From: a virus
Lineage: Duplodnaviria; Caudoviricetes
IMG/VR virus record: IMGVR_UViG_3300027872_000005
Span: 1-63,150 of that record
Length of the DNA stretch: 63,150 nucleotides
Strand: one strand, 5' to 3'
Part shown: in pieces, positions 1-63,150 of the stretch
How positions within the stretch are numbered: position 1 is the stretch's first letter
Layout of the letters: each line of letters starts with the position of its first letter
The notes under the pieces: generated by a model
The model's input: the letters and a program-made list of their open reading frames with translations, nothing else
What the model was told of the DNA's origin: nothing
Database searches by the model: none
Translations under genes and position numbers: made by a program

Positions 1-163
1 AAATTCCATAAGGAATCTGTTGGGATTGCAGACCGTTGGCGTCAACATATAAACGTTGCCAAGCTGCCCGAACTGTGAGACAAGCTCGTTGCCTCGCCGG
101 TCTGGTCCACTGCCGGTTCGTCATTGTACCGGCTTAAGACCGTATGGTTTGCTCCTGGCCGGC
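1..163. repeat. Terminal direct repeat, left copy (genome circularity or physical DTR)
   Basis: 1-163 matches 62988-63150 except T127 vs C63114. Confidence 0.95.
26..53 (+). promoter_or_regulatory. Putative sigma70-type promoter
   Basis: TTGCAG-N16-TATAAA, directly followed by the ACGTTGCC motif (53-60). Confidence 0.4.
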
Positions 164-1059: not shown

Positions 1060-1321
1060 TGCGGGGTGGAGTAGTTTGATGTGGGCCTGTCTCGCCAACA
1101 GGGGTAACGTAATATTGTGGCGTTAGATCAGACAGGCATCTGAAAGCTGCGAAACGCCCCACATCAATTCAGTTCTAGCGCGGCGTCTCGACTTAGCCGA
1201 CATCGAGAGCGGGAGCACCACGGATGAATGCTCTGACCGACCAAAGACGGCAATTGCGGCAGGACCGTTAAGGCCAATGCCAATGTCGTAGAGCCGGTGT
1301 AGCGACCGGCCCGCGCAACCA
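1060..1321 (+). ncRNA. tRNA-like structured RNA ending in ACCA
   Basis: T-arm-like GCCGGT/ACCGGC then CCGCGCA-A-CCA; partner strands AGCGCGG (1177) or TGCGGGG (1060); several internal hairpins; both ends resemble tRNA-fMet. Confidence 0.55.
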
Positions 1322-1423
1322 GGTGTCAGAAAAAGAATTGATTTGGCCATTGCGTCATATATGCAACACAAAAGGCTGCTGTTTGGGTGTAGGGTCGAAC
1401 CTCACATCAAAGGAGAAGACCTG

Positions 1424-2101
1424 ATGAAACGTCTAATCACTCTGATTGCCTTGCTATTTTCCTTCCCGGCATTCGCCGCGGATCTGCCGGTCTATGAGCC
1501 GCCTGTGGCGGTCCAATATGAGCCAGCCATCAATTGGACCGGCGGCTATGTCGGCCTGGGCGTCGGTGGTGGCGCCACCTGCAACGATATCTCATTTACC
1601 GGCATGTCCCTCGATTGCGTCGGCGGGCAGGGGTTTATCGGCGATGTGATCCTTGGCTACGACTGGCAGCTTGGAAGTCGATGGGTTGTCGGCGCCCGTA
1701 TTGGCGCGGCCTATCAGGATCTGGAAACTTCTGCCGTAGCAGCTCCGTTTGCCCTGACGGCAGAACCGGAATGGGTCGGAACGATGTCGCTCCGCGCCGG
1801 TCTGTTGCCCAATGAGTCAACCTTGCTCTACGCAATCGGTGGATACTCGTATCTGGACAGCTATACCGTTTCAATCACTGGCGTAGGCACCTTCAAACAG
1901 CGCTATAACAGCGGTTGGCACATTGGCGGCGGTGCTGAAGTGTTTGTCAGTCCATCGTTCACGATTGGCGGCGAATATCTCTATACCGATCATGGTTCAT
2001 CGTCTTGGGGTGTTTCCGGCCTGAGCGTATCGCCATCGACGCACACGGCGATGTTCCGCATGAATTGGCGTCCACAGAGCGGATTGTTCGGAAGGCGGTG
2101 A
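1424..2101 (+). CDS. Outer-membrane beta-barrel protein, Omp25/RopB-like
   Basis: Signal peptide ending AFA-ADL; NWTGGYVG, GYDWQ, GWHIGGGAE, GGEYLYTD motifs; AGGAG RBS. Confidence 0.85.
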   Translation: MKRLITLIALLFSFPAFAADLPVYEPPVAVQYEPAINWTGGYVGLGVGGGATCNDISFTGMSLDCVGGQGFIGDVILGYDWQLGSRWVVGARIGAAYQDLETSAVAAPFALTAEPEWVGTMSLRAGLLPNESTLLYAIGGYSYLDSYTVSITGVGTFKQRYNSGWHIGGGAEVFVSPSFTIGGEYLYTDHGSSSWGVSGLSVSPSTHTAMFRMNWRPQSGLFGRR

Positions 2102-2111
2102 TTGCTCTGGA

Positions 2112-2251
2112 GCGCATCGTTCCAAATATGTAGTTTGGCACGGTTGCTAATCAACGTTTCAGACTGACGGCCGCACCTGTTGTGATCTGAAACCGGCAAC
2201 CGTGTCGTTCCGAATCTGTTATCATTGCGATGTACGCCCTTTGTGGGCGTG
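2112..2251 (+). ncRNA. Long imperfect hairpin / structured RNA candidate
   Basis: GGCACGGTTGC(2137)/GCAACCGTGTC(2196) and GTTTCAGA(2156)/TCTGAAAC(2186) nested stems, plus ACGCCC/GGGCGT hairpin. Confidence 0.4.
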
Positions 2252-2267
2252 TTTCCTCCCTAAACTT

Positions 2268-2303
2268 GGGGCCGGTTTCCAGATTTACCCGGCCCCCTTT
2301 TTT
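2268..2303 (+). terminator. Putative intrinsic terminator
   Basis: GGGGCCGG/CCGGCCCC stem followed by a T6 run. Confidence 0.6.
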
Positions 2304-2365
2304 CGTCAACTTGCCAAATCTCACAACAATCGAAATCATGGCGCCAGATCACTGGACGATTCGCT

Positions 2366-3694: not shown

Positions 3695-5422
3695 ATGAAG
3701 GAAATTCTCGGCACTCGATACGAAGCTGATTGCCCGCCCGGGTTTGTCAATTTTCTCAGCACGGCTCTACACAATCTGTCATACGAATCCGCTTGTGATT
3801 TCTACGCCGAATACGCGCCGAAGATGAGCAATGCGCAGCTCGCGCTGCTTGGCTGCAATGATCGGTTTTTCCTGCTTACCTACATCCTGCGCCGCCCCGA
3901 TGTCATCCACCCCTGGCTTTACGATCGCTGCCGGGAGGTCGAGAACGAGGCCGATGGCTTCCTCGATCTGTGGGCAAGGGAACATTACAAAAGCACCATC
4001 ATTACCTTCGCTGGCTCGATCCAAGAGATTGCCATCAATCCGGAGATCACGATCGCGATTTTCGGCGGCACCGACAAGATCGCCAAGCCGTTTCTCTCAC
4101 AAATCCAAACCGAGCTTGAAAACAACCAGATCCTCAAGGACATCTACGCTGACGTCTTCTGGAAAAACCCCAAGAAGGAAGCGCCAAGCTGGTCAACCAC
4201 CGATGGCCTGATCGTCAAACGCGAGACAAACCCGAAAGAGGCGACGGTAAGCGCCTTCGGCCTGATCGATGGTATGCCGACCGGCGGACACTGGTTGTTG
4301 CGCATCTACGACGACATCATCAACGAAAAACTCGTCACCAACCCTGAACAGATTTTGAAGGCAACCGAGCGTTGGGAACTGTCCGATAACCTCGGCGCCG
4401 GGATCAACCGAGCCTGGCACATCGGGACACGATACCACTTCGCCGACAGCTACGGCACCATCCTGGAACGCGAAGTTTGCAAGGAACGGATTTATCCTGC
4501 TACCGACAATGGCAAGATCAACGGTGTTCCGGTGTTCTTCACGCCTGAAAAGTGGTTTGAGAAGGTCAAGACGCAGCGTTCCGTGCTGGCTGCGCAAATG
4601 CTGCAAAATCCGCTGGCCGGCAAGGAAAACACGTTCGAGACGAAATGGCTGAACGGCTTCATCCTGCGCCCGAGAACGCTCAATATCTGCATTCTGGTGG
4701 ACCCCTCGAAAGGCCGTAAGCGCGTTGGCTCCCAGGCCAACAGGAGCGATCGCACGGCAATGGCGGTAATCGGCGTCGATGCGCAAATGAACAAATACCT
4801 TCTCGACGGCTATCGCCATCGCATGTCGCTAAGTGAGCGCTGGAAGAAGCTCAAGGATTTGCACAAGAAATGGAGGAACGCGGAAGGAATCCAGAGCATT
4901 CGAGTTGGCTACGAGCGCTACGGCCAGCAAACCGATGATGAATATTTTGAAATGCAAATGCGCAAGGAAAACTACCGCTTCGATCTGGAAGAAGTCGCGT
5001 GGGTGAAGGAAGGTGGCCAATCGAAAGCCGATAGAGTGGGCCGCTTAGAGCCGGATTTCCGGCATAGCAACTTTTATTTACCGGGCAAAATCTGGCATCC
5101 GGATCTGGGCAAATGTACCTGGTCGATTGACAAAGAAACCGGAAAGATTTTGTATCATCGAATCGAGGGCGAATTGCGTCAGGAAAGGGATGCTCGCAAG
5201 AACGGCGAAAAATACCGGCTCATTGACCCAATCAAGCGCCTCGACGAAGACACAAATATTTATGACCTGACACGATCATTCTTTGAGGAATATCGACTTT
5301 TCCCCTTCGGGACACACGACGATCTGATTGACGCCACATCGAGAATTTTCGATCTGGAAGATGTCACCGGTCCTGTGATCTTCGAGCATGGAGAAGAGTT
5401 CGCTCCTGTTTTTGCAGATTGA
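3695..5422 (+). CDS. terL: Terminase large subunit
   Basis: Walker A-like AREHYKST, Walker B RIYDD, nuclease ILVDPS and HDDLIDA motifs. Confidence 0.92.
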   Translation: MKEILGTRYEADCPPGFVNFLSTALHNLSYESACDFYAEYAPKMSNAQLALLGCNDRFFLLTYILRRPDVIHPWLYDRCREVENEADGFLDLWAREHYKSTIITFAGSIQEIAINPEITIAIFGGTDKIAKPFLSQIQTELENNQILKDIYADVFWKNPKKEAPSWSTTDGLIVKRETNPKEATVSAFGLIDGMPTGGHWLLRIYDDIINEKLVTNPEQILKATERWELSDNLGAGINRAWHIGTRYHFADSYGTILEREVCKERIYPATDNGKINGVPVFFTPEKWFEKVKTQRSVLAAQMLQNPLAGKENTFETKWLNGFILRPRTLNICILVDPSKGRKRVGSQANRSDRTAMAVIGVDAQMNKYLLDGYRHRMSLSERWKKLKDLHKKWRNAEGIQSIRVGYERYGQQTDDEYFEMQMRKENYRFDLEEVAWVKEGGQSKADRVGRLEPDFRHSNFYLPGKIWHPDLGKCTWSIDKETGKILYHRIEGELRQERDARKNGEKYRLIDPIKRLDEDTNIYDLTRSFFEEYRLFPFGTHDDLIDATSRIFDLEDVTGPVIFEHGEEFAPVFAD

Positions 5423-28965: not shown

Positions 28966-29334
28966 ATGGGAAAGGAGATCGAATGGATCATCTTCTACGA
29001 TGACGAAAGTTCGTTTTCATCGGTCGATGGTCCGCCTGGCGAGGCGCCGCGTGATGGCGTCCAGTGCATCGCTGTCGTTGACCGCGGCTGTGGCCATTAC
29101 ATTTTAAGCGAACAAGATTGGTATTGCTGGCACTTCGAGGACGATTGTTGGGTGCCACACGGATGGGCCGGAATGCTGCAATACCTGCGTAAACCGGGCG
29201 TTTTGAAGATTGTTCTTGAGGGATATGCCATCAAGGGCGAACGGCATTACAAGCAGCGCTCAAAGGCCCGGAAAGACCCAAGATTACCGCCTGTCACGGC
29301 TAAACCTCCAAGACAACTGGAGAATACGCCATGA
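28966..29334 (+). CDS. Hypothetical protein
   Basis: ORF coupled to next gene. Confidence 0.7.
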   Translation: MGKEIEWIIFYDDESSFSSVDGPPGEAPRDGVQCIAVVDRGCGHYILSEQDWYCWHFEDDCWVPHGWAGMLQYLRKPGVLKIVLEGYAIKGERHYKQRSKARKDPRLPPVTAKPPRQLENTP

Positions 29335-31703
29335 CTGCGATGAATCCCATTACCGAGCAAGAATTTTACCGCATTCGCGATGATACGACTGCTGCGGACC
29401 CCGGCACACCAAATTGGATATCGACGGAAAATCAGGCCACTCGCACGGTCATCGATGTCGATACGCCCTTCCGTATCCGGTTCGTCACTGCAAATAGTGG
29501 CGATGCCAATGCTAATTCGGCGTTCCAGCTCAGGATGGAAAAAAATGGGACGGGCGGCTTCCTTGAAGTCACAACGGTCTCAGCGAATGGCGCACAAGCC
29601 GCTGCCGTCAGTTCCAGCGCCGATGCCACGGTATTAACCACCGGGAATTTTCAGCTTTCGGCTGGTACTGGCACGGCGGCCAACGGTGAATATTCAGAGG
29701 ATGGGATCTCTGACGCCAATATGGGCCAAGGCGCCTACATCGAGGTCGAGTTTGGCGTCACCATACCGGCCGCAGATGTCGCTGACGCCGATACCCTTGA
29801 TTTCCGCGTCTATTATGATGGAAGTGCGTTCAACAACTACGACACCAACGCCACCGCGATTGTTGAGGTCAATAAGGTTGTCGGATTATCGGTCGGAGCC
29901 TCTGCAGGCGTCGCAACCGCGACAGCGTTAAGCGGTTCCATCGGTGCATCCTTGGGCGTCGGAACGGCTGTCGCCAAGATCGACATCCTTGGCGTGTCGG
30001 CGGGTGTAGCTTCTGTAACGGGTCTTTCCGGTTCAATTGCCGCATCTCTTGGTGTCGCAACGGCCGTTGCAAAGATCGATATTCTCGGCGTGTCGTCTGG
30101 TGTTGCGGCTGTCACCGGTAAATCAGGCTCGATTGCCTCTGCGGCGGGTGTCGCAACGGTTGCCGGTGAAGCCGCAGGTCCGGCAAGTCTCGCTGCATCG
30201 GCAGGTGTCGCGACGGTTCTTGGCTTGTCCGGTTCCATCGGTGCATCCTTGGGCGTCGGAACGGCTGTCGCCAAAACGGACGTTGAAGGTATTGCAGCCG
30301 GTGTAGCGACCGTCACAGGCCTGTCAGGCTCGATTGGCGCATCGATCGGCAAGGCGGTCGTCCTTAGCTACAGCGACCAACAGAGCGGTTTCCTGCTTGG
30401 CCACAAGGCATTCGCGGAAGTCGGATTCAGTGGTGATGGAGCGTTTGCGGAAGCGGCGGGTGCCGTCTCTGTTGCTGCTTCGGCAGGCGTCGCCACGGTC
30501 GCGGGCCTATCGGGGTCAATTGCTCAATCGGCAGGTGTTGCAACCGCTGTCGCCAAAATAGACATCCTTGGCGTTTCGGCGGGCGTAGCTGCCGTTATCG
30601 GTAAATCAGGCTCGATTGCCTCTGCGGCGGGTGTTGCAACGGTTTCCGGTGAAGCTGAAGGTCCGGCAAGTCTCGCTGCATCGGCAGGTGTTGCAACTGT
30701 ACTAGGATTGAGCGGTTCAATAGCTTCTGCGGCAGGTGCGGGAACTGTCACCAGCCTTTCCGGTTCCATTGGCGCCTCGTTGGGTGTTGCAACGGCTGTC
30801 GCCAAGATCGATATTCTCGGTGTTTCAGCCGGCTTGGCTACCGCTACGGGCCTGTCCGGTTCCATCGCTGCCTCTGCAGGTGTTGGAACGGCTGCTGCCA
30901 AGATCGACATCCTTGGTGTTTCAGCCGGCGTGGCCACGGCTATCGGTCTTTCTGGCTCGATCGGTGCGTCGATCGGCAAGGCGGTCGTCCTTAGCTACAG
31001 CGACCAACAGAGCGGTTTCCTGCTTGGCCATAAGGCATTCGCGGAAACCGCCTTCAGTGGTGATGGAGCGGTTTCAGCAGAAGCAGCGGTTATTGGCGTT
31101 TCGGCTGGTGTTGCAACGGTCCTTGGTCTGAGTGGTTCGATTGCCGCATCCCTTGGTGTCGCCGCGGTTTCTGGTATAGCCGAAGGGGTCGGGGGCGTCG
31201 GCGCTTCTGCAGGTGTAGCAACCGCTCTTGGTTTGTCCGGTTCGATCGCGGTTTCAACCGGTGTTGCCACGGTTGCCGGTGTCGGTGCTGCGGCTGGCAG
31301 TGTCGCGGCGGCGGCAGGTGTTGCCACCGCTCTTGGCTTGTCCGGCTCGGTCGCGATTTCAACCGGCGTGGCCACGGTTGCCGGTGTTAGTCCTGTGCTT
31401 AGTGTCGCGGTGGCAGCGGGCTCGTCAACCGTTTTGGGCATTTCGCCACCGATTGCCGGTCAGATCATCATACCGGGCGGCGGCGGAATCGGTGTAGGAG
31501 GGACAACCAGGCGCAGGCGGCCAAAATACCGGCAGCCGGAATATTACGACCGGTGGGAGGAATACGAGAAGCAAAAGCGCCGCGCCAAAGGCTTGGACGA
31601 TGATCTCGATGAGGAACAACAGCGACTTGCTCAAATCTTCCGGGAAGATGAGGAAATCGTTGCAATGCTGGCTTCAACGATTGTTCATGGGATATTGGAA
31701 TGA
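29331..31703 (+). CDS. Long Ala/Gly/Val/Ser repeat fibre protein
   Basis: Globular N-domain, then many ~16-aa xSAGVATxxGLSGSI-type repeats; Gly/Arg then acidic C-terminal segment. Confidence 0.75.
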   Translation: MTAMNPITEQEFYRIRDDTTAADPGTPNWISTENQATRTVIDVDTPFRIRFVTANSGDANANSAFQLRMEKNGTGGFLEVTTVSANGAQAAAVSSSADATVLTTGNFQLSAGTGTAANGEYSEDGISDANMGQGAYIEVEFGVTIPAADVADADTLDFRVYYDGSAFNNYDTNATAIVEVNKVVGLSVGASAGVATATALSGSIGASLGVGTAVAKIDILGVSAGVASVTGLSGSIAASLGVATAVAKIDILGVSSGVAAVTGKSGSIASAAGVATVAGEAAGPASLAASAGVATVLGLSGSIGASLGVGTAVAKTDVEGIAAGVATVTGLSGSIGASIGKAVVLSYSDQQSGFLLGHKAFAEVGFSGDGAFAEAAGAVSVAASAGVATVAGLSGSIAQSAGVATAVAKIDILGVSAGVAAVIGKSGSIASAAGVATVSGEAEGPASLAASAGVATVLGLSGSIASAAGAGTVTSLSGSIGASLGVATAVAKIDILGVSAGLATATGLSGSIAASAGVGTAAAKIDILGVSAGVATAIGLSGSIGASIGKAVVLSYSDQQSGFLLGHKAFAETAFSGDGAVSAEAAVIGVSAGVATVLGLSGSIAASLGVAAVSGIAEGVGGVGASAGVATALGLSGSIAVSTGVATVAGVGAAAGSVAAAAGVATALGLSGSVAISTGVATVAGVSPVLSVAVAAGSSTVLGISPPIAGQIIIPGGGGIGVGGTTRRRRPKYRQPEYYDRWEEYEKQKRRAKGLDDDLDEEQQRLAQIFREDEEIVAMLASTIVHGILE

Positions 31704-40590: not shown

Positions 40591-40854
40591 ATGTCAAGCA
40601 TGAAATCCATTTCGCCGGCACTAGAGGCCCAAGCCGTCGATATATCGAGCGTCGATCACGCTTTTCCCAAGCCCTGCAACGCCATTTATGTCGGCGGAAC
40701 GGGTGTCATCATCGTTGAAATGGGCAATGTCGCGGGTGGCGTTGTAAATGTCACCTTCTCCGCTGTTCCTGCCGGCTATCAACTGAACGTTGCCGCAACC
40801 AAGGTAATCAAGACCGGCACCACGGCGACGCTCATGGTGGGGATGTTCTCGTGA
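40591..40854 (+). CDS. Head-spike base protein (RcGTA Rcc01079-like)
   Basis: 87 aa; AIYVGGTG...VTFSAVPAG...KVIKTGTTAT. Confidence 0.75.
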   Translation: MSSMKSISPALEAQAVDISSVDHAFPKPCNAIYVGGTGVIIVEMGNVAGGVVNVTFSAVPAGYQLNVAATKVIKTGTTATLMVGMFS

Positions 40855-42758
40855 GATTAGGACTCGGCCTTGGACTGAGATACAGACGCGCTTTGCTCGG
40901 TGAGCCTGTTCTGGCGATTCCGGTCAATAGCGTTGCACCGGCTATCAGCGGCACGGAAACACAAGGTAACGTCCTAACCACGACAGACGGGACGTGGACC
41001 GCCAATCCGCCGCCGACCTTCAGCTATCAATGGGATGCCAACGATGTTGTGATTCCGGCCGCGACGGCCAATCAATATACGCTGACGGCGGGTGAAGTCG
41101 GCAAGGTCGTCAAGTGCGTGGTCACGGCAACCAACACCGAAGGCTCGACGCCAGCGGACAGTAACGACAGCGGATCAATTGCCGCGGCGGTGGCCGATCC
41201 GGTCAATATCGCCTCTGCAGCGGGTGTCGCGACGGTTTCCGGTGAGGCCGCCGGCCTCGACAGCGTTGCCGCATCGGCGGGTGTGGCTACCGCTCTTGGC
41301 CGATCCGGTCCAACAGCGCCCAGCGATCTTCTCGATGACTCCGATTTCGATGCCCTGGCGGTTGATTTCGTCAGATTGCTTGTCACTATCCGCGATGTTG
41401 CGACACCGGCCAATGACGTCGCCGATGGCCCGATCAATTCCAGCATCGCTTTCACTGGTGGCACCAAGACCATTGTTGCTCTGAGCGGCGTTCTCAAGAC
41501 GCGAGGGGCCAACACGCTCGAACAATCGCACGATCCTGAAACACCTGGCAATGTAGCCATCGGAACGCTGATCGAGCCGATAGCGGAAGCCAGCATTCAC
41601 CTGCACTCTGCCGACGCGACAGACGTTTCATGGGTCAAATCCGGTGTCGATGTTCCGGCAACCGACAAAATCGATCCTTTCGGAACATCCACTGCCGATG
41701 AAATTGCCTGTACGGCACAAGGCGATGTCGTTCGGACAATGCACCAAGCCTACACCGGGTTGACGGCGGGCAAGGTGACGACCGTTTCCCGCTGGATCAA
41801 AGCCGGGGTCAATGTTGATTTCGTTCAATTGGCTTGGGATGCGGACGGCAATGGCACGGACGGCTGCTACTGTAATTTCCAGCTTTCCACGGGGGCGCGT
41901 GGAGTACCACAGGCGTTTGCCGCCGGCACGGCTCTAACCGCTCGTATGACCGGTTACATCAATGGCTATTATCGCGTCGAATTGGCCGGAAAGATTGCTG
42001 TCGGGACGGTCGGCCGCTTCTCAATGAATTTTGTCGATCGCATCGACGCTGACGGCTTCGAGGCCGCCAATTTGCTCAACAACGACAGCGTGATCGTTTT
42101 CGGGGCGCAGGTTGGACCGGGGACGGAGATCGCCGGTTCCTACATCGCTTCCACGACAACTCCCGTCACCCGTGCCGCCGATACCATCCCGCAGATCCTC
42201 ACCGCGGATTTCCCCTACGCCAACACGGGGCCGGGCTGCGTCGGCTTCAAATATCAGATTTTGGAGGTGCCGGCCGGCAATTCCAACATTTTCGCCATCG
42301 GCAATTCGGCGACGGAAGAACTGGCGCTTGAACAATATGACGATTCCGGCTCGCAACACCGCTTTTCCATCAAGGATGGCGGGGTACAGGTTGCGCTGAT
42401 TGCCGATGGTCCGGGCTCGGCCGACTATTTTGCTGAATTGCTCACCTGCTTCTCGTGGACAACTGACGATGCCTACATCAAGTGCAACGAGGGCATCCCT
42501 GACGGCACCCAGGACGTGACCGTGACGCTGCCGACAACCGGTGGCACCTTACTCTACATCGGCGGCGACAGCAGCGGCGGTTCAGCTTCGATAATGCTCA
42601 AGGAATTTGTCTACCTGCCGCGCAAACCATTCAACATCGATACCGAAGCCACGGCAGACGGCGGGTTGCCGTTCCCAACCGGTATTGCCGCGATGGCTCT
42701 GCTTGAGACCGGTGACGCTATCCTCACCGAGACAGGCGGAAACCTCGTTCTCGAATAA
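40851..42758 (+). CDS. Head fibre protein (Rcc01080-like N-terminus)
   Basis: MRLGLGLGL start; Ig-like PAISG...YQW domain; SYIASTTTPVTRAAD; lectin-like C-domain. Confidence 0.75.
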   Translation: MRLGLGLGLRYRRALLGEPVLAIPVNSVAPAISGTETQGNVLTTTDGTWTANPPPTFSYQWDANDVVIPAATANQYTLTAGEVGKVVKCVVTATNTEGSTPADSNDSGSIAAAVADPVNIASAAGVATVSGEAAGLDSVAASAGVATALGRSGPTAPSDLLDDSDFDALAVDFVRLLVTIRDVATPANDVADGPINSSIAFTGGTKTIVALSGVLKTRGANTLEQSHDPETPGNVAIGTLIEPIAEASIHLHSADATDVSWVKSGVDVPATDKIDPFGTSTADEIACTAQGDVVRTMHQAYTGLTAGKVTTVSRWIKAGVNVDFVQLAWDADGNGTDGCYCNFQLSTGARGVPQAFAAGTALTARMTGYINGYYRVELAGKIAVGTVGRFSMNFVDRIDADGFEAANLLNNDSVIVFGAQVGPGTEIAGSYIASTTTPVTRAADTIPQILTADFPYANTGPGCVGFKYQILEVPAGNSNIFAIGNSATEELALEQYDDSGSQHRFSIKDGGVQVALIADGPGSADYFAELLTCFSWTTDDAYIKCNEGIPDGTQDVTVTLPTTGGTLLYIGGDSSGGSASIMLKEFVYLPRKPFNIDTEATADGGLPFPTGIAAMALLETGDAILTETGGNLVLE

Positions 42759-59490: not shown

Positions 59491-59871
59491 ATGAACACAG
59501 AACTAACACCGATGCAAACGTTCGAGGAACAGGTCAAAGAGCGCCTGAAAACCGATATTGCCGATCTGTTGCCGGATGAGGCGCTGTCAGGGTTGATCGA
59601 GAAATCTATCAACGAAATGTTTTTCAAGCCACGGATAACCGGCAACAGTTTCAACGAGCGGCGCGAACCGAGCTGGTTTAACCAGGCGGTCGAAACCGCG
59701 GTCAAGGCACGGTTGTCGGGATTGCTGACAAAGCACCTGGCGGACCACCAGAAAGACATAGACGCCAAGATTGAGGCGTCGATCGTCAGATCCATGCCGG
59801 CGGCTGTCGAGACGCTGACGATGGCGCTGCACGAACTGGTCGAGCACATCAAACAGATGAGCTACCGATGA
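59491..59871 (+). CDS. Hypothetical protein
   Basis: Helical ORF coupled to next gene. Confidence 0.7.
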   Translation: MNTELTPMQTFEEQVKERLKTDIADLLPDEALSGLIEKSINEMFFKPRITGNSFNERREPSWFNQAVETAVKARLSGLLTKHLADHQKDIDAKIEASIVRSMPAAVETLTMALHELVEHIKQMSYR

Positions 59872-60872
59872 GGTATCTCGCACTCGTTTCTCTGATGATG
59901 AGGACCTTGATTGTTGTATTTCTGTTTGCCGTGATGGCGCCGTCACTGTCCGTTGCCGGCCCGTTGGCGGATTTACTGAAACAATGGGCGGACAGGCAAC
60001 AGCAACAGGATGACACGCCGGAGCCGACGCCGGAGCCAGAGCCGGACAGCGAGACAATCACGATTACGCGGCAATTATTGATCGATGGGAAAAAGCGCAC
60101 CTACATCCTTTATGCGCCGGTGAATTATGGTTCGTATCGGCCTTTGGTGATTGCTTTTCATGGCGCTGGCGGGAGACCGATGATATTTGCCAGCCGGATG
60201 TTTCTGCGTGAAATGGCCGATGAACATGGCTACGTTCTGGCGCTGCCGAAGGGTGTTCGCAAAAGCTGGAACGCCGACAGCCTGGAGGAAAGCGCCAGCG
60301 GCTACGCTGAGCGCACGAACATCAACGACATCGGTTTTGTCCAGGCGATCATCTACGACGCTCGCGCACAGGCGTCCATGGGTCCGGATGTCTATCTCAT
60401 GGGCATGTCGAAGGGTGGCATGATGGCCTACCACGCCGCCTGCGAGATCGATGACATCGATAAGATTGCCGTGGTCGCCGGCACCCTGTCGTCGGAGGAT
60501 TGCACATCGCTTAAGGAAGTCGATCTGTTGCACATTCATGGAACAAAGGATGAAAACGTTCCCTTTGATGGCGGTCGAGGACAATACACTGGCGGTGACA
60601 CTATCTGGCCGCCGGTCAAGAGAGGGTTGGATTTATGGCGGAAAAAGAACGGGGTAGGACCACCAACCCTGAAACGTGCCGCGCAAGATACCCTTTGCAC
60701 TGTCGAGAAGTCGAACGATGGCAAAACCCGCATGGAAGTGTGTCTTGTCACGCCCGGCGGCCACGCCTGGCCCGGCATTGAACCGTCGCAAAGGCAGATC
60801 GACAACGATATTTATGTCTCGCCGCATTTCATCGCGACTGACTATATCGCGGAGTTTTTCAACGGAGGATGA
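59868..60872 (+). CDS. Secreted alpha/beta-hydrolase, LpqC / PHB-depolymerase-like esterase
   Basis: Signal peptide; PLVIAFHGAGG, GMSKGG nucleophile elbow, HGTKD, GGHAWPG. Confidence 0.88.
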   Translation: MRYLALVSLMMRTLIVVFLFAVMAPSLSVAGPLADLLKQWADRQQQQDDTPEPTPEPEPDSETITITRQLLIDGKKRTYILYAPVNYGSYRPLVIAFHGAGGRPMIFASRMFLREMADEHGYVLALPKGVRKSWNADSLEESASGYAERTNINDIGFVQAIIYDARAQASMGPDVYLMGMSKGGMMAYHAACEIDDIDKIAVVAGTLSSEDCTSLKEVDLLHIHGTKDENVPFDGGRGQYTGGDTIWPPVKRGLDLWRKKNGVGPPTLKRAAQDTLCTVEKSNDGKTRMEVCLVTPGGHAWPGIEPSQRQIDNDIYVSPHFIATDYIAEFFNGG

Positions 60873-62987: not shown

Positions 62988-63150
62988 AAATTCCATAAGG
63001 AATCTGTTGGGATTGCAGACCGTTGGCGTCAACATATAAACGTTGCCAAGCTGCCCGAACTGTGAGACAAGCTCGTTGCCTCGCCGGTCTGGTCCACTGC
63101 CGGTTCGTCATTGCACCGGCTTAAGACCGTATGGTTTGCTCCTGGCCGGC
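62988..63150. repeat. Terminal direct repeat, right copy
   Basis: Matches 1-163 with one mismatch. Confidence 0.95.

What the first reader, a model, noticed from the sequence alone, without database searches (positions are those of the whole stretch)
1060..1321. Enlarged tRNA-like RNA with encoded CCA and initiator-tRNA-like ends
Seen: this intergenic stretch ends GCCGGT-GTAGCG-ACCGGC-CCGCGCA-A-CCA, a T-arm-like hairpin stacked on an acceptor strand. AGCGCGG (1177-1183) gives 6 perfect pairs with a 1:72 mismatch. It closes a 145-nt cloverleaf: TCTCGA/TCGAGA arm, GGAGCA/TGCTCT arm with no canonical 7-nt anticodon loop, and a long arm at 1247-1289. Upstream, TGCGGGGTGGAGTAG (1060) is an alternative 5' strand, followed by a separate domain (TTGATGTGGG/CCCACATCAA enclosing CCTGTCT/AGACAGG). 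Known: bacterial tRNA-fMet begins CGCGGGGTGGAGCAG, ends CCGGCCCCCGCAACCA and has an unpaired 1:72. Inference: a non-decoding tRNA mimic, for example a decoy for anticodon nucleases, an RNase P processing signal, or a two-state RNA.
Basis: partly seen in the sequence, partly recalled or inferred. Interest (0 to 1): 0.75.

Follow-up and report, generated by a model that had tools for sequence, protein, structure and literature searches.

The report
Decayed initiator-tRNA remnant in phage spacer
A non-coding gap in a marine phage genome holds the tail end of an initiator-type tRNA gene that can no longer decode, and the larger "giant cloverleaf" drawn around it is no better than chance, so it is a modest curiosity, not a shown new RNA class.

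Summary

Only the 3' end is beyond chance. Positions 1293-1321 hold a T-stem, a 3' acceptor strand, discriminator A and CCA. These match, letter for letter outside the loop, real tRNA-Met(CAU) genes on viral and alphaproteobacterial contigs.

The rest is not supported:
- ARAGORN and Rfam find no tRNA, tmRNA or intron.
- Fold z-scores are -0.9 to -1.2.
- 14% of native 145-nt windows fold as well.
- 24% of shuffled upstream sequences also close a stem onto the fixed 3' strand.
- A model built from initiator-type tRNAs picks a tRNA-sized unit, 1253-1321, with a decayed 5' strand.
- The only homologue, a second contig from the same seawater run, supports that unit with a perfect 5' strand and different flanks.

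No integrase, RNA data or usable set of homologues exists.

Best reading: a degenerate, non-decoding descendant of a phage initiator-like tRNA gene with an unusual "AGC" T-loop. It may still act as an RNase P or 3'-end processing structure.

A cleaner, conserved 79-nt relative without an anticodon loop exists in other phages (L011, L038, L039).

The parts
1293..1321 (+). T-arm-like hairpin (GCCGG / 8-nt loop TGTAGCGA / CCGGC, or a 6-bp stem with a 6-nt loop), then 3' acceptor strand CCGCGCA, discriminator A and encoded CCA. This is the only part shown to be tRNA-derived.
   Evidence: Searches give the coordinates; the same 21 specified bases end the ARAGORN-called tRNA-Met(CAT) genes in L007, L008, L009, L010, L012, L018, L021, L027 and L030. 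The hairpin has pairing probability 0.88-0.99 in all sequence contexts tried.
1253..1321 (+). tRNA-sized (69 nt) degenerate unit. It has a proximal 5' strand ATTGCGG (4 Watson-Crick pairs plus 1 G-U with the 3' strand), a weak D-like arm and no anticodon arm. It is probably the ancestral tRNA-like element.
   Evidence: Model R2 of initiator-type tRNA-Met genes gives its best hit here: 16.2 bits, E 0.0014 in 801 nt and 0.17 in 92 kb. A second contig of run X1 matches 1274-1316 with 5 differences. By eye, its upstream letters AGCGCGGCAGGA align with 1253-1264. On its own, this 69-nt stretch does not fold into a cloverleaf.
1177..1183 (+). Distal perfect 5' strand AGCGCGG.
   Evidence: One search gives the fold. 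In one search the pairing probability is about 1.0 in isolated 1177-1321 or 1060-1321, 0.63 in 1000-1420 and 0.21-0.25 in roughly 600-nt contexts. The same call shows the chance rate of such closure is 122 of 500 shuffles.
1186..1289 (+). Three internal hairpins of the 145-nt fold: 1186-1208, 1212-1234 and the long arm 1247-1289. None resembles a D arm or an anticodon arm.
   Evidence: Rfam lists no tRNA-like match at E up to 10.
1060..1164 (+). Upstream long imperfect hairpin that starts right after the stop codon of ORF 817-1059. Its 5' end resembles the start of an initiator tRNA but pairs locally with 1155-1163.
   Evidence: minimum free energy -41.5 kcal/mol, z -2.87, 1 of 200 shuffles as good; 30 of 300 native 117-nt windows fold as well; a profile of the 5' halves of the fetched tRNA-Met genes gives no hit here (E above 100).
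1323..1424 (+). 33-aa GTG ORF. It starts 1 nt after the CCA, and its TGA stop overlaps the ATG of the outer-membrane-protein gene by one base. Whether it is a real gene is uncertain.
   Evidence: It has no Pfam family and no similarity to the ORF that follows the L011 element.

Best explanation
The finding holds a degenerate, non-decoding descendant of a phage-borne initiator-like tRNA-Met gene.

Shown:
- The T-stem, 3' acceptor strand, discriminator A and encoded CCA (1293-1321) are identical to those of real tRNA-Met(CAU) genes. These include a viral one (L012) that begins AGCGCGG and has an unusual AGCGAAG T-loop. That loop shares AGCGA with the loop here.
- The tRNA body is gone. The loop has 8 nt, there is no anticodon arm, and the proximal 5' strand (1253-1259) has decayed.

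Inferred:
- The ancestral unit was tRNA-sized (1253-1321).
- The perfect GCGCGG 76 nt upstream, which produces the 145-nt 'cloverleaf', is most likely fortuitous. So is the initiator-like 15-mer at 1060.
- The spacer lies in a run of rightward genes. If it is transcribed, a 12-13-bp acceptor/T coaxial helix with 3' ACCA and a U before position 1 would be the minimal shape that RNase P and tRNA 3'-end enzymes accept.
- The most likely residual activity is therefore as a processing or 3'-end-stabilising structure. It would sit between the upstream orphan ORFs and the outer-membrane-protein and mmgR cassette.

My odds: tRNA-gene descent about 0.8. Any retained function about 0.3.
For: -: the 3' pattern retrieves 9 ARAGORN-called tRNA-Met(CAT) genes. 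These are 5 of the 6 viral loci and 4 of the 25 genome loci. The other 21 genome loci have no tRNA at the match and look like chance hits in G+C-rich DNA.
- L012 has the same acceptor stem and T-stem and an AGC-type T-loop.
- AGC-type T-loops recur in phage tRNAs. Of 44 matches, 22 are tRNA-like, and ARAGORN of those as Met, Ile, Val, His or Gly.
- the initiator-type model aligns 1253-1321 as one tRNA-sized unit.
- an independent contig in the same run carries a homologue of 1274-1316, by eye from about 1251. It has a perfect proximal 5' strand and unrelated flanks. It diverges just where our ACCA lies. The two copies are damaged in different places, as expected under relaxed selection.
- no tRNA, tmRNA or Rfam call.
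- the larger fold is at chance level.
- the stretch is non-coding.
- passages of the review PMC11143913 list phage M3 RNA, the P1/P7 C4 RNA precursor, pre-4.5S RNA and mRNAs as non-tRNA substrates of RNase P.
Against: - Stems and loops have not decayed evenly. All 12 stem positions of the acceptor 3' strand and T-stem are intact, while the loop and the body are unrecognisable. That pattern also fits selection for a minihelix, meaning a functional mimic.
- The distal AGCGCGG gives a thermodynamically dominant closure in the isolated RNA.
- The homologue is known only from a 43-nt alignment plus 30-nt flank consensuses of a low-depth contig (depth 4.8). My extension of that alignment to 1253 is by eye.
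- The model score (16.2 bits) rests largely on the 3' bases by which the model's sequences were fetched.
- No transcript, processing or expression data exist.
Confidence: 0.55

Rival explanations
1. This is the first reader's view: a functional enlarged (145-nt or 262-nt) tRNA-like RNA. The acceptor/T minihelix with CCA would be kept under selection, with new arms in place of the D and anticodon arms. It would act as a decoy for defences that act on tRNA ends or bodies, or as a two-state RNA.
For: - The minimum-energy fold of 1177-1321 is a four-way junction closed by 6 G-C-rich pairs stacked on the T hairpin, with pairing probability about 1.0 in isolation.
- The stems are conserved selectively relative to real tRNA-Met genes, while the loops differ.
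- A cleaner non-decoding relative exists in other phages and is conserved. L011 against L038 is 74 of 78 identical in the element, against 173 of 226 upstream and 88 of 111 downstream. All 4 substitutions fall in unpaired positions.
- tRNA-targeting defences and phage tRNA counter-measures are documented. I saw only the search listing and abstracts for PMC10264068, PMC11464382, PMC11555353 and PMC12851939.
Against: - Fold z-scores are -1.23 and -0.87.
- 43 of 300 native windows fold as well.
- 122 of 500 shuffles close by chance.
- Closure probability falls to 0.21-0.25 in longer transcripts.
- The 1060 strand never pairs with the 3' end.
- The homologue and the model both place the 5' strand at 1253, not 1177.
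- No homologue of 1177-1252 was found in any collection.
Confidence: 0.15
2. A relic of an attachment site. The 3' part of an initiator tRNA gene would be carried as an attP or attR core. It might have been left when a temperate ancestor picked up the adjacent outer-membrane-protein and mmgR cassette by imprecise excision.
For: - The fragment starts at the T-stem and runs to the CCA, which is the part of a tRNA gene typically duplicated at integration sites (recalled knowledge).
- It sits at the left edge of a compositionally distinct cassette. AT skew changes sign at about 1350-2400. The cassette holds an OMP beta-barrel gene (Pfam 1.1e-12) and an mmgR-like sRNA (45.8 bits).
- A provirus with an integrase carries a tRNA-Met gene with this same 3' end (L008 in G003).
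Against: - No tyrosine or serine recombinase is found in six-frame searches of a record that is 97% complete and has a 163-nt terminal repeat.
- The core has no second copy in the genome.
- The loop is not a host-type T-loop, so integration through it would not rebuild a working tRNA.
- The loop shares AGCGA with a phage tRNA (L012), not with the host-type genes.
- The OMP has no close bacterial relative, at most 38% identity.
Confidence: 0.1
3. The stretch is simply the untranslated leader or promoter region of the outer-membrane-protein cassette, or the 3' UTR of the upstream operon. Its hairpins would serve in mRNA stability or RNase III/E processing, and the tRNA likeness would be incidental to that role.
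For: - It is a 365-nt non-coding gap in front of a gene with a good Shine-Dalgarno site: AAGGAG lies 8 nt before ATG 1424.
- The upstream hairpin 1060-1164 folds better than its shuffles, z -2.87.
- A small ORF, 1323-1424, overlaps the OMP start by one base.
Against: - No promoter-like or terminator-like site is found in 1060-1420.
- 30 of 300 native windows fold as well as the hairpin.
- This reading does not explain the exact identity of 21 bases with tRNA-Met 3' ends.
Confidence: 0.12
4. Pure chance: nothing tRNA-related is present.
For: 21 of the 25 genome contigs matches to the 3' pattern have no tRNA gene at the match and look like chance hits in G+C-rich DNA.
Against: - The window has about 54% G+C. 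For 21 specified bases in 63 kb, on both strands and with 4 loop lengths, my own arithmetic gives about 3e-7 expected matches.
- The 6-bp hairpin, the ACCA end and the homologue in a second contig all add to this.
Confidence: 0.03

Closest known systems
Phage-encoded initiator-like tRNA-Met genes with an 'AGC' T-loop (L012; also L080, L083, L090, L092, L097 on viral contigs)
   Same: L012 has the same acceptor stem (AGCGCGG / CCGCGCA, with A opposite A at 1:72), the same T-stem (GCCGG / CCGGC), discriminator A and encoded CCA. Its T-loop shares AGCGA with the loop here.
   Different: Those genes are 77-78 nt, have a CAU anticodon in a 7-nt loop and a 7-nt T-loop, and are called by ARAGORN. The window element has none of these features and is not called.
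The 79-nt tRNA-like element of L011, L038 and L039 (viral and metagenome contigs; I know of no description)
   Same: It has the same T-stem and the same 3' acceptor strand, A and CCA. Its T-loop is non-canonical (AGCATGA) and it has no 7-nt anticodon loop. It is intergenic in a phage and is not called by ARAGORN.
   Different: It forms a clean tRNA-sized cloverleaf with a perfect 7-bp acceptor stem. It scores 38.7-40.2 bits with model R2, against 16.2 here. It is conserved above its flanks. Its CCA abuts or overlaps the ATG of the next ORF. The host phage shows no protein similarity to this window in the loci held.
Non-tRNA substrates of bacterial RNase P: phage phi80 M3 RNA, precursor of P1/P7 C4 antisense RNA, pre-4.5S RNA, pre-tmRNA
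   Same: These are acceptor-stem-like helices with a 3' RCCA that are processed without being tRNAs, and two of them are phage RNAs. They are listed in passages of the review PMC11143913. Structural details are recalled.
   Different: No processing has been shown here. There is no sequence relation, and none of these families matches (Rfam).
tmRNA tRNA-like domain and bacterial YrlA (Y RNA-like) tRNA mimics
   Same: They are non-decoding RNAs that keep an acceptor/T-arm top half. For YrlA I saw PMC4201824 in the search listing only.
   Different: They keep a canonical T-loop. tmRNA also has a G-U alanine identity pair and a tag reading frame (recalled). ARAGORN's tmRNA search finds nothing, even at 80% thresholds, and Rfam finds nothing.
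T4 stable RNAs 'species 1 and 2' (rnaC, rnaD) in the T4 tRNA cluster
   Same: These are larger-than-tRNA stable phage RNAs of unknown function, encoded beside tRNA genes. This is recalled. The review PMC11143913 cites a 'catalogue of tRNA-like molecules' made by T-even phages.
   Different: No sequence was compared here. This phage has no tRNA cluster: ARAGORN finds 0 genes in the whole genome.

Membership tests
tRNA (ARAGORN definition; Rfam RF00005) | Cloverleaf of canonical size with a 7-nt anticodon loop and a 7-nt T-loop, detectable by standard tRNA finders | tested here: not met
   ARAGORN finds 0 genes in the window and none at 90% or 80% thresholds without introns. Rfam lists no tRNA match at E up to 10 in 900-1500. 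The loop of the T-like arm has 8 nt (or 6), and no arm has a 7-nt anticodon loop in 1177-1321.
tRNA (ARAGORN definition; Rfam RF00005) | Acceptor 3' strand, discriminator and CCA stacked on a 5-bp T-stem | tested here: met
   1293-1321 is identical in 21 specified bases to 9 ARAGORN-called tRNA-Met genes.
Bacterial initiator tRNA (tRNA-fMet) | Unpaired 1:72 | tested here: inconclusive
   A1177 lies opposite A1317 if 1177 is the 5' end, as in L012. A1253 also lies opposite A1317 in the model alignment. With the 1060 strand the pair would be T-A. Which 5' strand is real is not known.
Bacterial initiator tRNA (tRNA-fMet) | CAU anticodon, and consecutive G-C pairs at the base of the anticodon stem (recalled definition) | tested here: not met
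   1177-1321 has no 7-nt loop with CAU. The hairpin 1086-1102 in the upstream domain has a 7-nt loop CTCGCCA, which has no CAT.
Initiator-type tRNA-Met genes fetched here (model R2 from alignment A2) | Significant score against a covariance model of the family | tested here: inconclusive
   16.2 bits at 1253-1321, E 0.0014 in 801 nt but 0.17 in 92 kb. The L011-type elements score 38.7-40.2 bits. The model's sequences were fetched by this element's own 3' bases, so part of the score is there by construction.
tmRNA (one-piece or permuted) | tRNA-like domain plus tag reading frame, detectable by ARAGORN or Rfam | tested here: not met
   (option -m at 80% threshold) gives 0 genes.
tRNA gene interrupted by a group I intron | Recognisable exons flanking an intron core (Rfam Intron_gpI) | tested here: not met
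   No intron family appears at E up to 10. ARAGORN with introns calls a 'tRNA-Ala(ggc), 169-nt intron' at 1060-1321 only at 80% thresholds. That call has mismatched D and anticodon stems, and an equally poor call lies on the opposite strand.
Phage attP or att-site core in a tRNA gene | A site-specific recombinase in the element, and/or a second copy of the core | tested here: not met
   PF00589 and PF00239 give 0 matches in six frames. The core occurs once in the genome.
RNase P non-tRNA substrates | Cleavage by RNase P at the 5' end of an acceptor-like helix with 3' RCCA | not testable with these tools
   The sequence shows a helix of 12-13 bp, a 3' ACCA, and T1176 before A1177. No enzymatic or RNA-end data exist. 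The only run holding the sequence is DNA.

The most novel reading that the evidence does not exclude
The element belongs to an undescribed family of phage-encoded, non-decoding derivatives of initiator tRNA. The known members would be this window, the second contig of run X1, and the conserved 79-nt element of L011, L038 and L039.

These RNAs would keep only the acceptor/T minihelix with CCA and an altered 'AGC-type' elbow. They sit directly in front of a start codon: CCA is followed by ATG in L011, L038 and X1 record 3, and by GTG one base later here.

Two mechanisms are possible:
- tRNA-style punctuation, in which RNase P and 3'-end processing cut the polycistronic RNA and release a near-leaderless downstream mRNA.
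- Decoys for defences that attack tRNA acceptor ends.
Probability: 0.15. Interest if true: 0.7.

Novelty: new member of a known kind. Interest (0 to 1): 0.3.

Why it matters
As it stands, the finding shows that a phage with no working tRNA gene still carries the recognisable top half of an initiator-type tRNA. It also shows that a convincing-looking giant cloverleaf can arise by chance around a G+C-rich acceptor strand.

If the minihelix is functional, it would add a phage example of tRNA-like punctuation, or of a decoy for tRNA-end-directed immunity.

The by-products may matter more than the finding itself. One is a conserved anticodon-less tRNA-like element in other phages. The other is a recurrent AGC-type T-loop in phage tRNAs that ARAGORN misses in half of the tRNA-like cases. 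Both are testable leads on how phages alter the tRNA elbow.

Tried and rejected
Searches for homologues of the stretch:
- blastn (distant mode) of 1000-1420 against phages and plasmids found no match.
- The exact 29-mer in viral contigs gave 0 hits.
- The 'enlarged' pattern GCGCGG-N(105-135)-3' core in viral contigs gave 0 hits.
- GCGGCAGGA-N(30-60)-CCGGCCCGCGC in viral contigs gave 12 loci. By inspection all look like chance hits, with none followed by ACCA.
- The metagenome scan for AGC-type T-arms with this acceptor gave 3 loci. L038 and L039 are L011-type. L040 looks like a chance hit in G+C-rich DNA, where ARAGORN calls no tRNA.
- The DNA search of 401 sampled Alphaproteobacteria genomes gave 9 matches of 19-51 nt at E 0.001-0.008 per genome. 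That is chance level.
- The search of 5 named genomes gave 0 matches.

Searches through neighbouring genes:
- The 80-aa ORF has no relative in viral contigs, and only itself among 5.8 billion proteins.
- The outer-membrane protein has no relative in viral contigs or genome contigs by peptide patterns. Its best identities are 29-38%.
- Terminase relatives L002-L005 are 30-56% identical. L002, the locus whose upstream ORFs I listed, has a different upstream region. ARAGORN finds no tRNA in any of the four, and tblastx matches cover little beyond the terminase gene.

Other negative results:
- No RNA holder is listed for the stretch. The only run is a seawater DNA run that may be the source. Laying it gave contigs only.
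- A profile of the 5' halves of the fetched tRNA-Met genes gave no hit at 1060. I therefore dropped the idea that 1060-1102 is a provable tRNA 5' half. By eye, 15 of its first 21 bases match L021, and a 5-bp/7-nt hairpin sits in anticodon-arm register.
- The 33-aa ORF after the CCA is not similar to the ORF after the L011 element.
- The integrase search in L007, L009 and L010 found none, but those records are only 7-18% complete, so this is uninformative.
- Literature searches listed no paper describing AGC-type T-loops or anticodon-less initiator-like tRNAs in phages. That covers three searches of the held library and no more.
- Supplementary files were not consulted.
- The look-up of encoding contigs is marked closed and was not called.
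Full report
**Setting.** The window is a whole IMG/VR virus record of 63,150 bp, rated 97% complete. Positions 1-163 repeat at 62988-63150 with 99% identity, so the genome is closed or terminally redundant. The only public run holding it is a seawater metagenome DNA run.

The finding lies in a 365-nt gap with these neighbours:
- Upstream is an orphan 80-aa ORF (817-1059), which has no relative among 5.8 billion proteins.
- Downstream is an outer-membrane beta-barrel gene (1424-2101; Pfam OMP_b-brl, 1.1e-12).
- Next comes an mmgR/suhB-type sRNA (2229-2310; 45.8 bits against a gathering score of 41).
- After that come an HNH endonuclease (2366-2827) and the large terminase (3695-5422).
- AT skew changes sign across about 1350-2400, which suggests the OMP and sRNA cassette has a different origin.
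- Six-frame searches find no tyrosine or serine recombinase.

**The observation.** No + strand ORF of 20 aa or more lies inside 1127-1322.

Standard detectors see nothing:
- ARAGORN finds 0 tRNA or tmRNA genes in the window.
- Rfam gives no hit here at gathering scores, and no tRNA, tmRNA or intron family at E up to 10.

**What is beyond chance.** I searched for the T-stem, an open loop of 6-9 nt, and the 16 bases CCGGCCCGCGCAACCA. This returned 6 viral loci and 25 genome loci.
- ARAGORN calls a tRNA-Met(CAT) gene ending in exactly these bases in 5 of the 6 viral loci and 4 of the 25 genome loci: L007, L008, L009, L010, L012, L018, L021, L027 and L030.
- The other 21 genome loci have no tRNA gene at the match and look like chance hits in G+C-rich DNA.
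- Most of these tRNAs start CGCGCGG, giving C opposite A at 1:72, which is the initiator feature.
- L012, a viral contig, starts AGCGCGG as at 1177. Its T-loop is AGCGAAG. The loop here, TGTAGCGA, shares AGCGA with it.
- For a 54% G+C window, 21 specified bases are expected about 3e-7 times (my arithmetic).

The 3' 29 nt are therefore descended from an initiator-type tRNA-Met gene, most like the phage-borne kind.

**What is not beyond chance.**
- Fold z-scores are -1.23 for 145 nt, -0.87 for 262 nt and -1.37 for the minus strand. A real tRNA (L012) also gives only -1.5, so this test is weak in both directions.
- 43 of 300 native 145-nt windows of this genome fold at least as well.
- With the 3' 29 nt fixed and 1060-1292 shuffled, 122 of 500 shuffles still pair at least 6 of the 7 acceptor bases with upstream sequence while the T hairpin stays intact. 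A closing stem is thus expected about a quarter of the time.
- The probability of the 1177/1311 helix is about 1.0 in the isolated RNA. It falls to 0.63 in 1000-1420 and to 0.21-0.25 in contexts of about 600 nt.
- The 1060 strand has probability 0 of pairing with the 3' end. It pairs locally in a long hairpin instead (z -2.87), although 30 of 300 native windows fold as well.
- A profile of the 5' halves of the fetched tRNA-Met genes does not find 1060.
- ARAGORN calls a 'tRNA with a 169-nt intron' at 1060-1321 only at 80% thresholds. An equally poor call lies on the other strand.

**Which unit is real.** I built covariance model R2 from the eight fetched tRNA-Met genes. An earlier model, R1, had a mis-registered structure and was discarded.
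- R2's best hit is 1253-1321, a tRNA-sized 69-nt unit whose 5' strand is ATTGCGG. It scores 16.2 bits, with E 0.0014 in 801 nt and 0.17 in 92 kb. Part of that score is there by construction.
- Laying the contigs of run X1 gave independent support. A second contig (record 3; 438 nt; depth 4.8) matches 1274-1316 with 5 differences and has unrelated flanks.
- The letters before its match read ...AGCGCGGCAGGA.... By eye these align with ATTGCGGCAGGA at 1253-1264.
- In that copy the proximal 5' strand is therefore the perfect complement. After the acceptor strand it diverges, and ACCA does not follow directly.
- The two copies are thus damaged in different places.
- On its own, 1253-1321 does not fold into a cloverleaf.
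- No other homologue was found in any collection. Covariation therefore cannot be tested.

**Relatives elsewhere.** L011, L039 and L038 carry a clean 79-nt cloverleaf with several notable features:
- It has the same T-stem and 3' end as the element here.
- Its T-loop is AGCATGA.
- A short irregular hairpin stands in place of the anticodon arm.
- Its CCA abuts or overlaps the ATG of the next ORF.
- ARAGORN does not call it, but R2 scores it at 38.7-40.2 bits.

Between L011 and L038 the element is 74 of 78 identical. The upstream flank is 173 of 226 identical and the downstream flank 88 of 111. All 4 substitutions fall in unpaired positions of the predicted fold. That element looks functional. 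It belongs to phages unrelated to this one in the loci held.

A wider scan for GCCGG-AGC-NNNN-CCGGC-N7-ACCA in viral contigs gave 44 matches in 43 loci.
- 22 of these are tRNA-like. 16 have a 7-of-7 acceptor stem at tRNA size, and 6 are tRNA-Met with a 1:72 mismatch.
- ARAGORN of the 22, as Met, Ile, Val, His or Gly. It misses 11, most of which sit inside phage tRNA arrays.
- In L012 the D-loop reads AGTCCAGTA, while L021, which has an ordinary T-loop, reads AGCCTGGTA. The change in the T-loop seems to go with a change in the D-loop partner. That reading uses recalled tRNA numbering.

**Interpretation.** The simplest account has four parts:
- The spacer holds a decayed, non-decoding descendant of a phage initiator-like tRNA-Met gene of the AGC-loop lineage.
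- The tRNA-sized unit 1253-1321 is ancestral.
- The perfect GCGCGG at 1178 and the initiator-like 15-mer at 1060 are most likely fortuitous.
- Because the acceptor/T helix, the ACCA and a U before position 1 survive, the element could still be cut by RNase P or serve as a stable 3' end in the rightward transcript.

Phage RNAs of this kind are known RNase P substrates (passages of review PMC11143913).

The intact stems beside the changed loops keep a functional-mimic reading alive. The L011-type element shows that such RNAs exist. An att-site relic is less likely without a recombinase or a second core copy. No function has been tested.

**Verdict.** The tRNA descent of its 3' end is solid. The enlarged cloverleaf and the two-state idea are unsupported. 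Interest is modest for this locus and higher for the related L011-type element and for the AGC-type elbow of phage tRNAs.

Noticed in passing
L011 8336-8414 (-); L039 3079-3157 (+); L038 1312-1390 (+): A conserved 79-nt tRNA-like cloverleaf in another phage lineage. It has a perfect acceptor stem, a T-loop AGCATGA and no 7-nt anticodon loop, and its CCA abuts or overlaps the ATG of the next ORF. ARAGORN does not call it. It is 74 of 78 identical between L011 and L038, against 77-79% in the flanks, and all 4 substitutions are in unpaired positions. It is a better candidate for a non-decoding tRNA mimic than the window's element.
   Followed up: partly
viral loci L060-L100, e.g. L065 13354-13427, L064 5936-6009, L098 8796-8869 (-): T-loops that begin AGC instead of TTC recur in phage tRNAs. 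22 of 44 pattern matches are tRNA-like. ARAGORN (Met, Ile, Val, His, Gly) and misses 11 that have perfect 7-bp acceptor stems, most inside tRNA arrays. The D-loop seems to change in step. Three literature searches listed no description.
   Followed up: partly
window 2229-2310 (+): An mmgR/suhB-type sRNA (Rfam RF00519; 45.8 bits against a gathering score of 41), with its terminator, encoded in a phage genome just after the OMP gene. mmgR is known as a regulator of PHB granule formation in rhizobia (the family description; the rest is recalled).
   Followed up: no
window 1424-2101 (+): An outer-membrane beta-barrel protein gene in a phage (Pfam OMP_b-brl, 1.1e-12). Its nearest relatives are only 29-38% identical. 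It lies in a segment with reversed AT skew, which looks like a moron cassette.
   Followed up: partly
window 1-163 and 62988-63150: A 163-nt direct terminal repeat at 99% identity. The record is a complete genome, either circularly closed or terminally redundant, although it is classed as 'linear'.
   Followed up: no
window 29893-31392 and 41199-41309: A large family of diverged 96/105-nt tandem repeats inside the 790-aa ORF 29331-31703. One related copy lies in the tail-protein gene 40851-42758.
   Followed up: no
window 59868-60872 (+): A weak, sub-threshold Pfam match to the PHB-depolymerase esterase family (E 0.007; 16.1 bits against a cut-off of 23). It is noted only because the phage also carries an mmgR-like sRNA.
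   Followed up: no
window 1516-1657: Run X1 holds a second 142-nt contig over part of the OMP gene with 8 differences (depth 7.9 against 13.4). This points to strain-level diversity of the phage in the sample.
   Followed up: no
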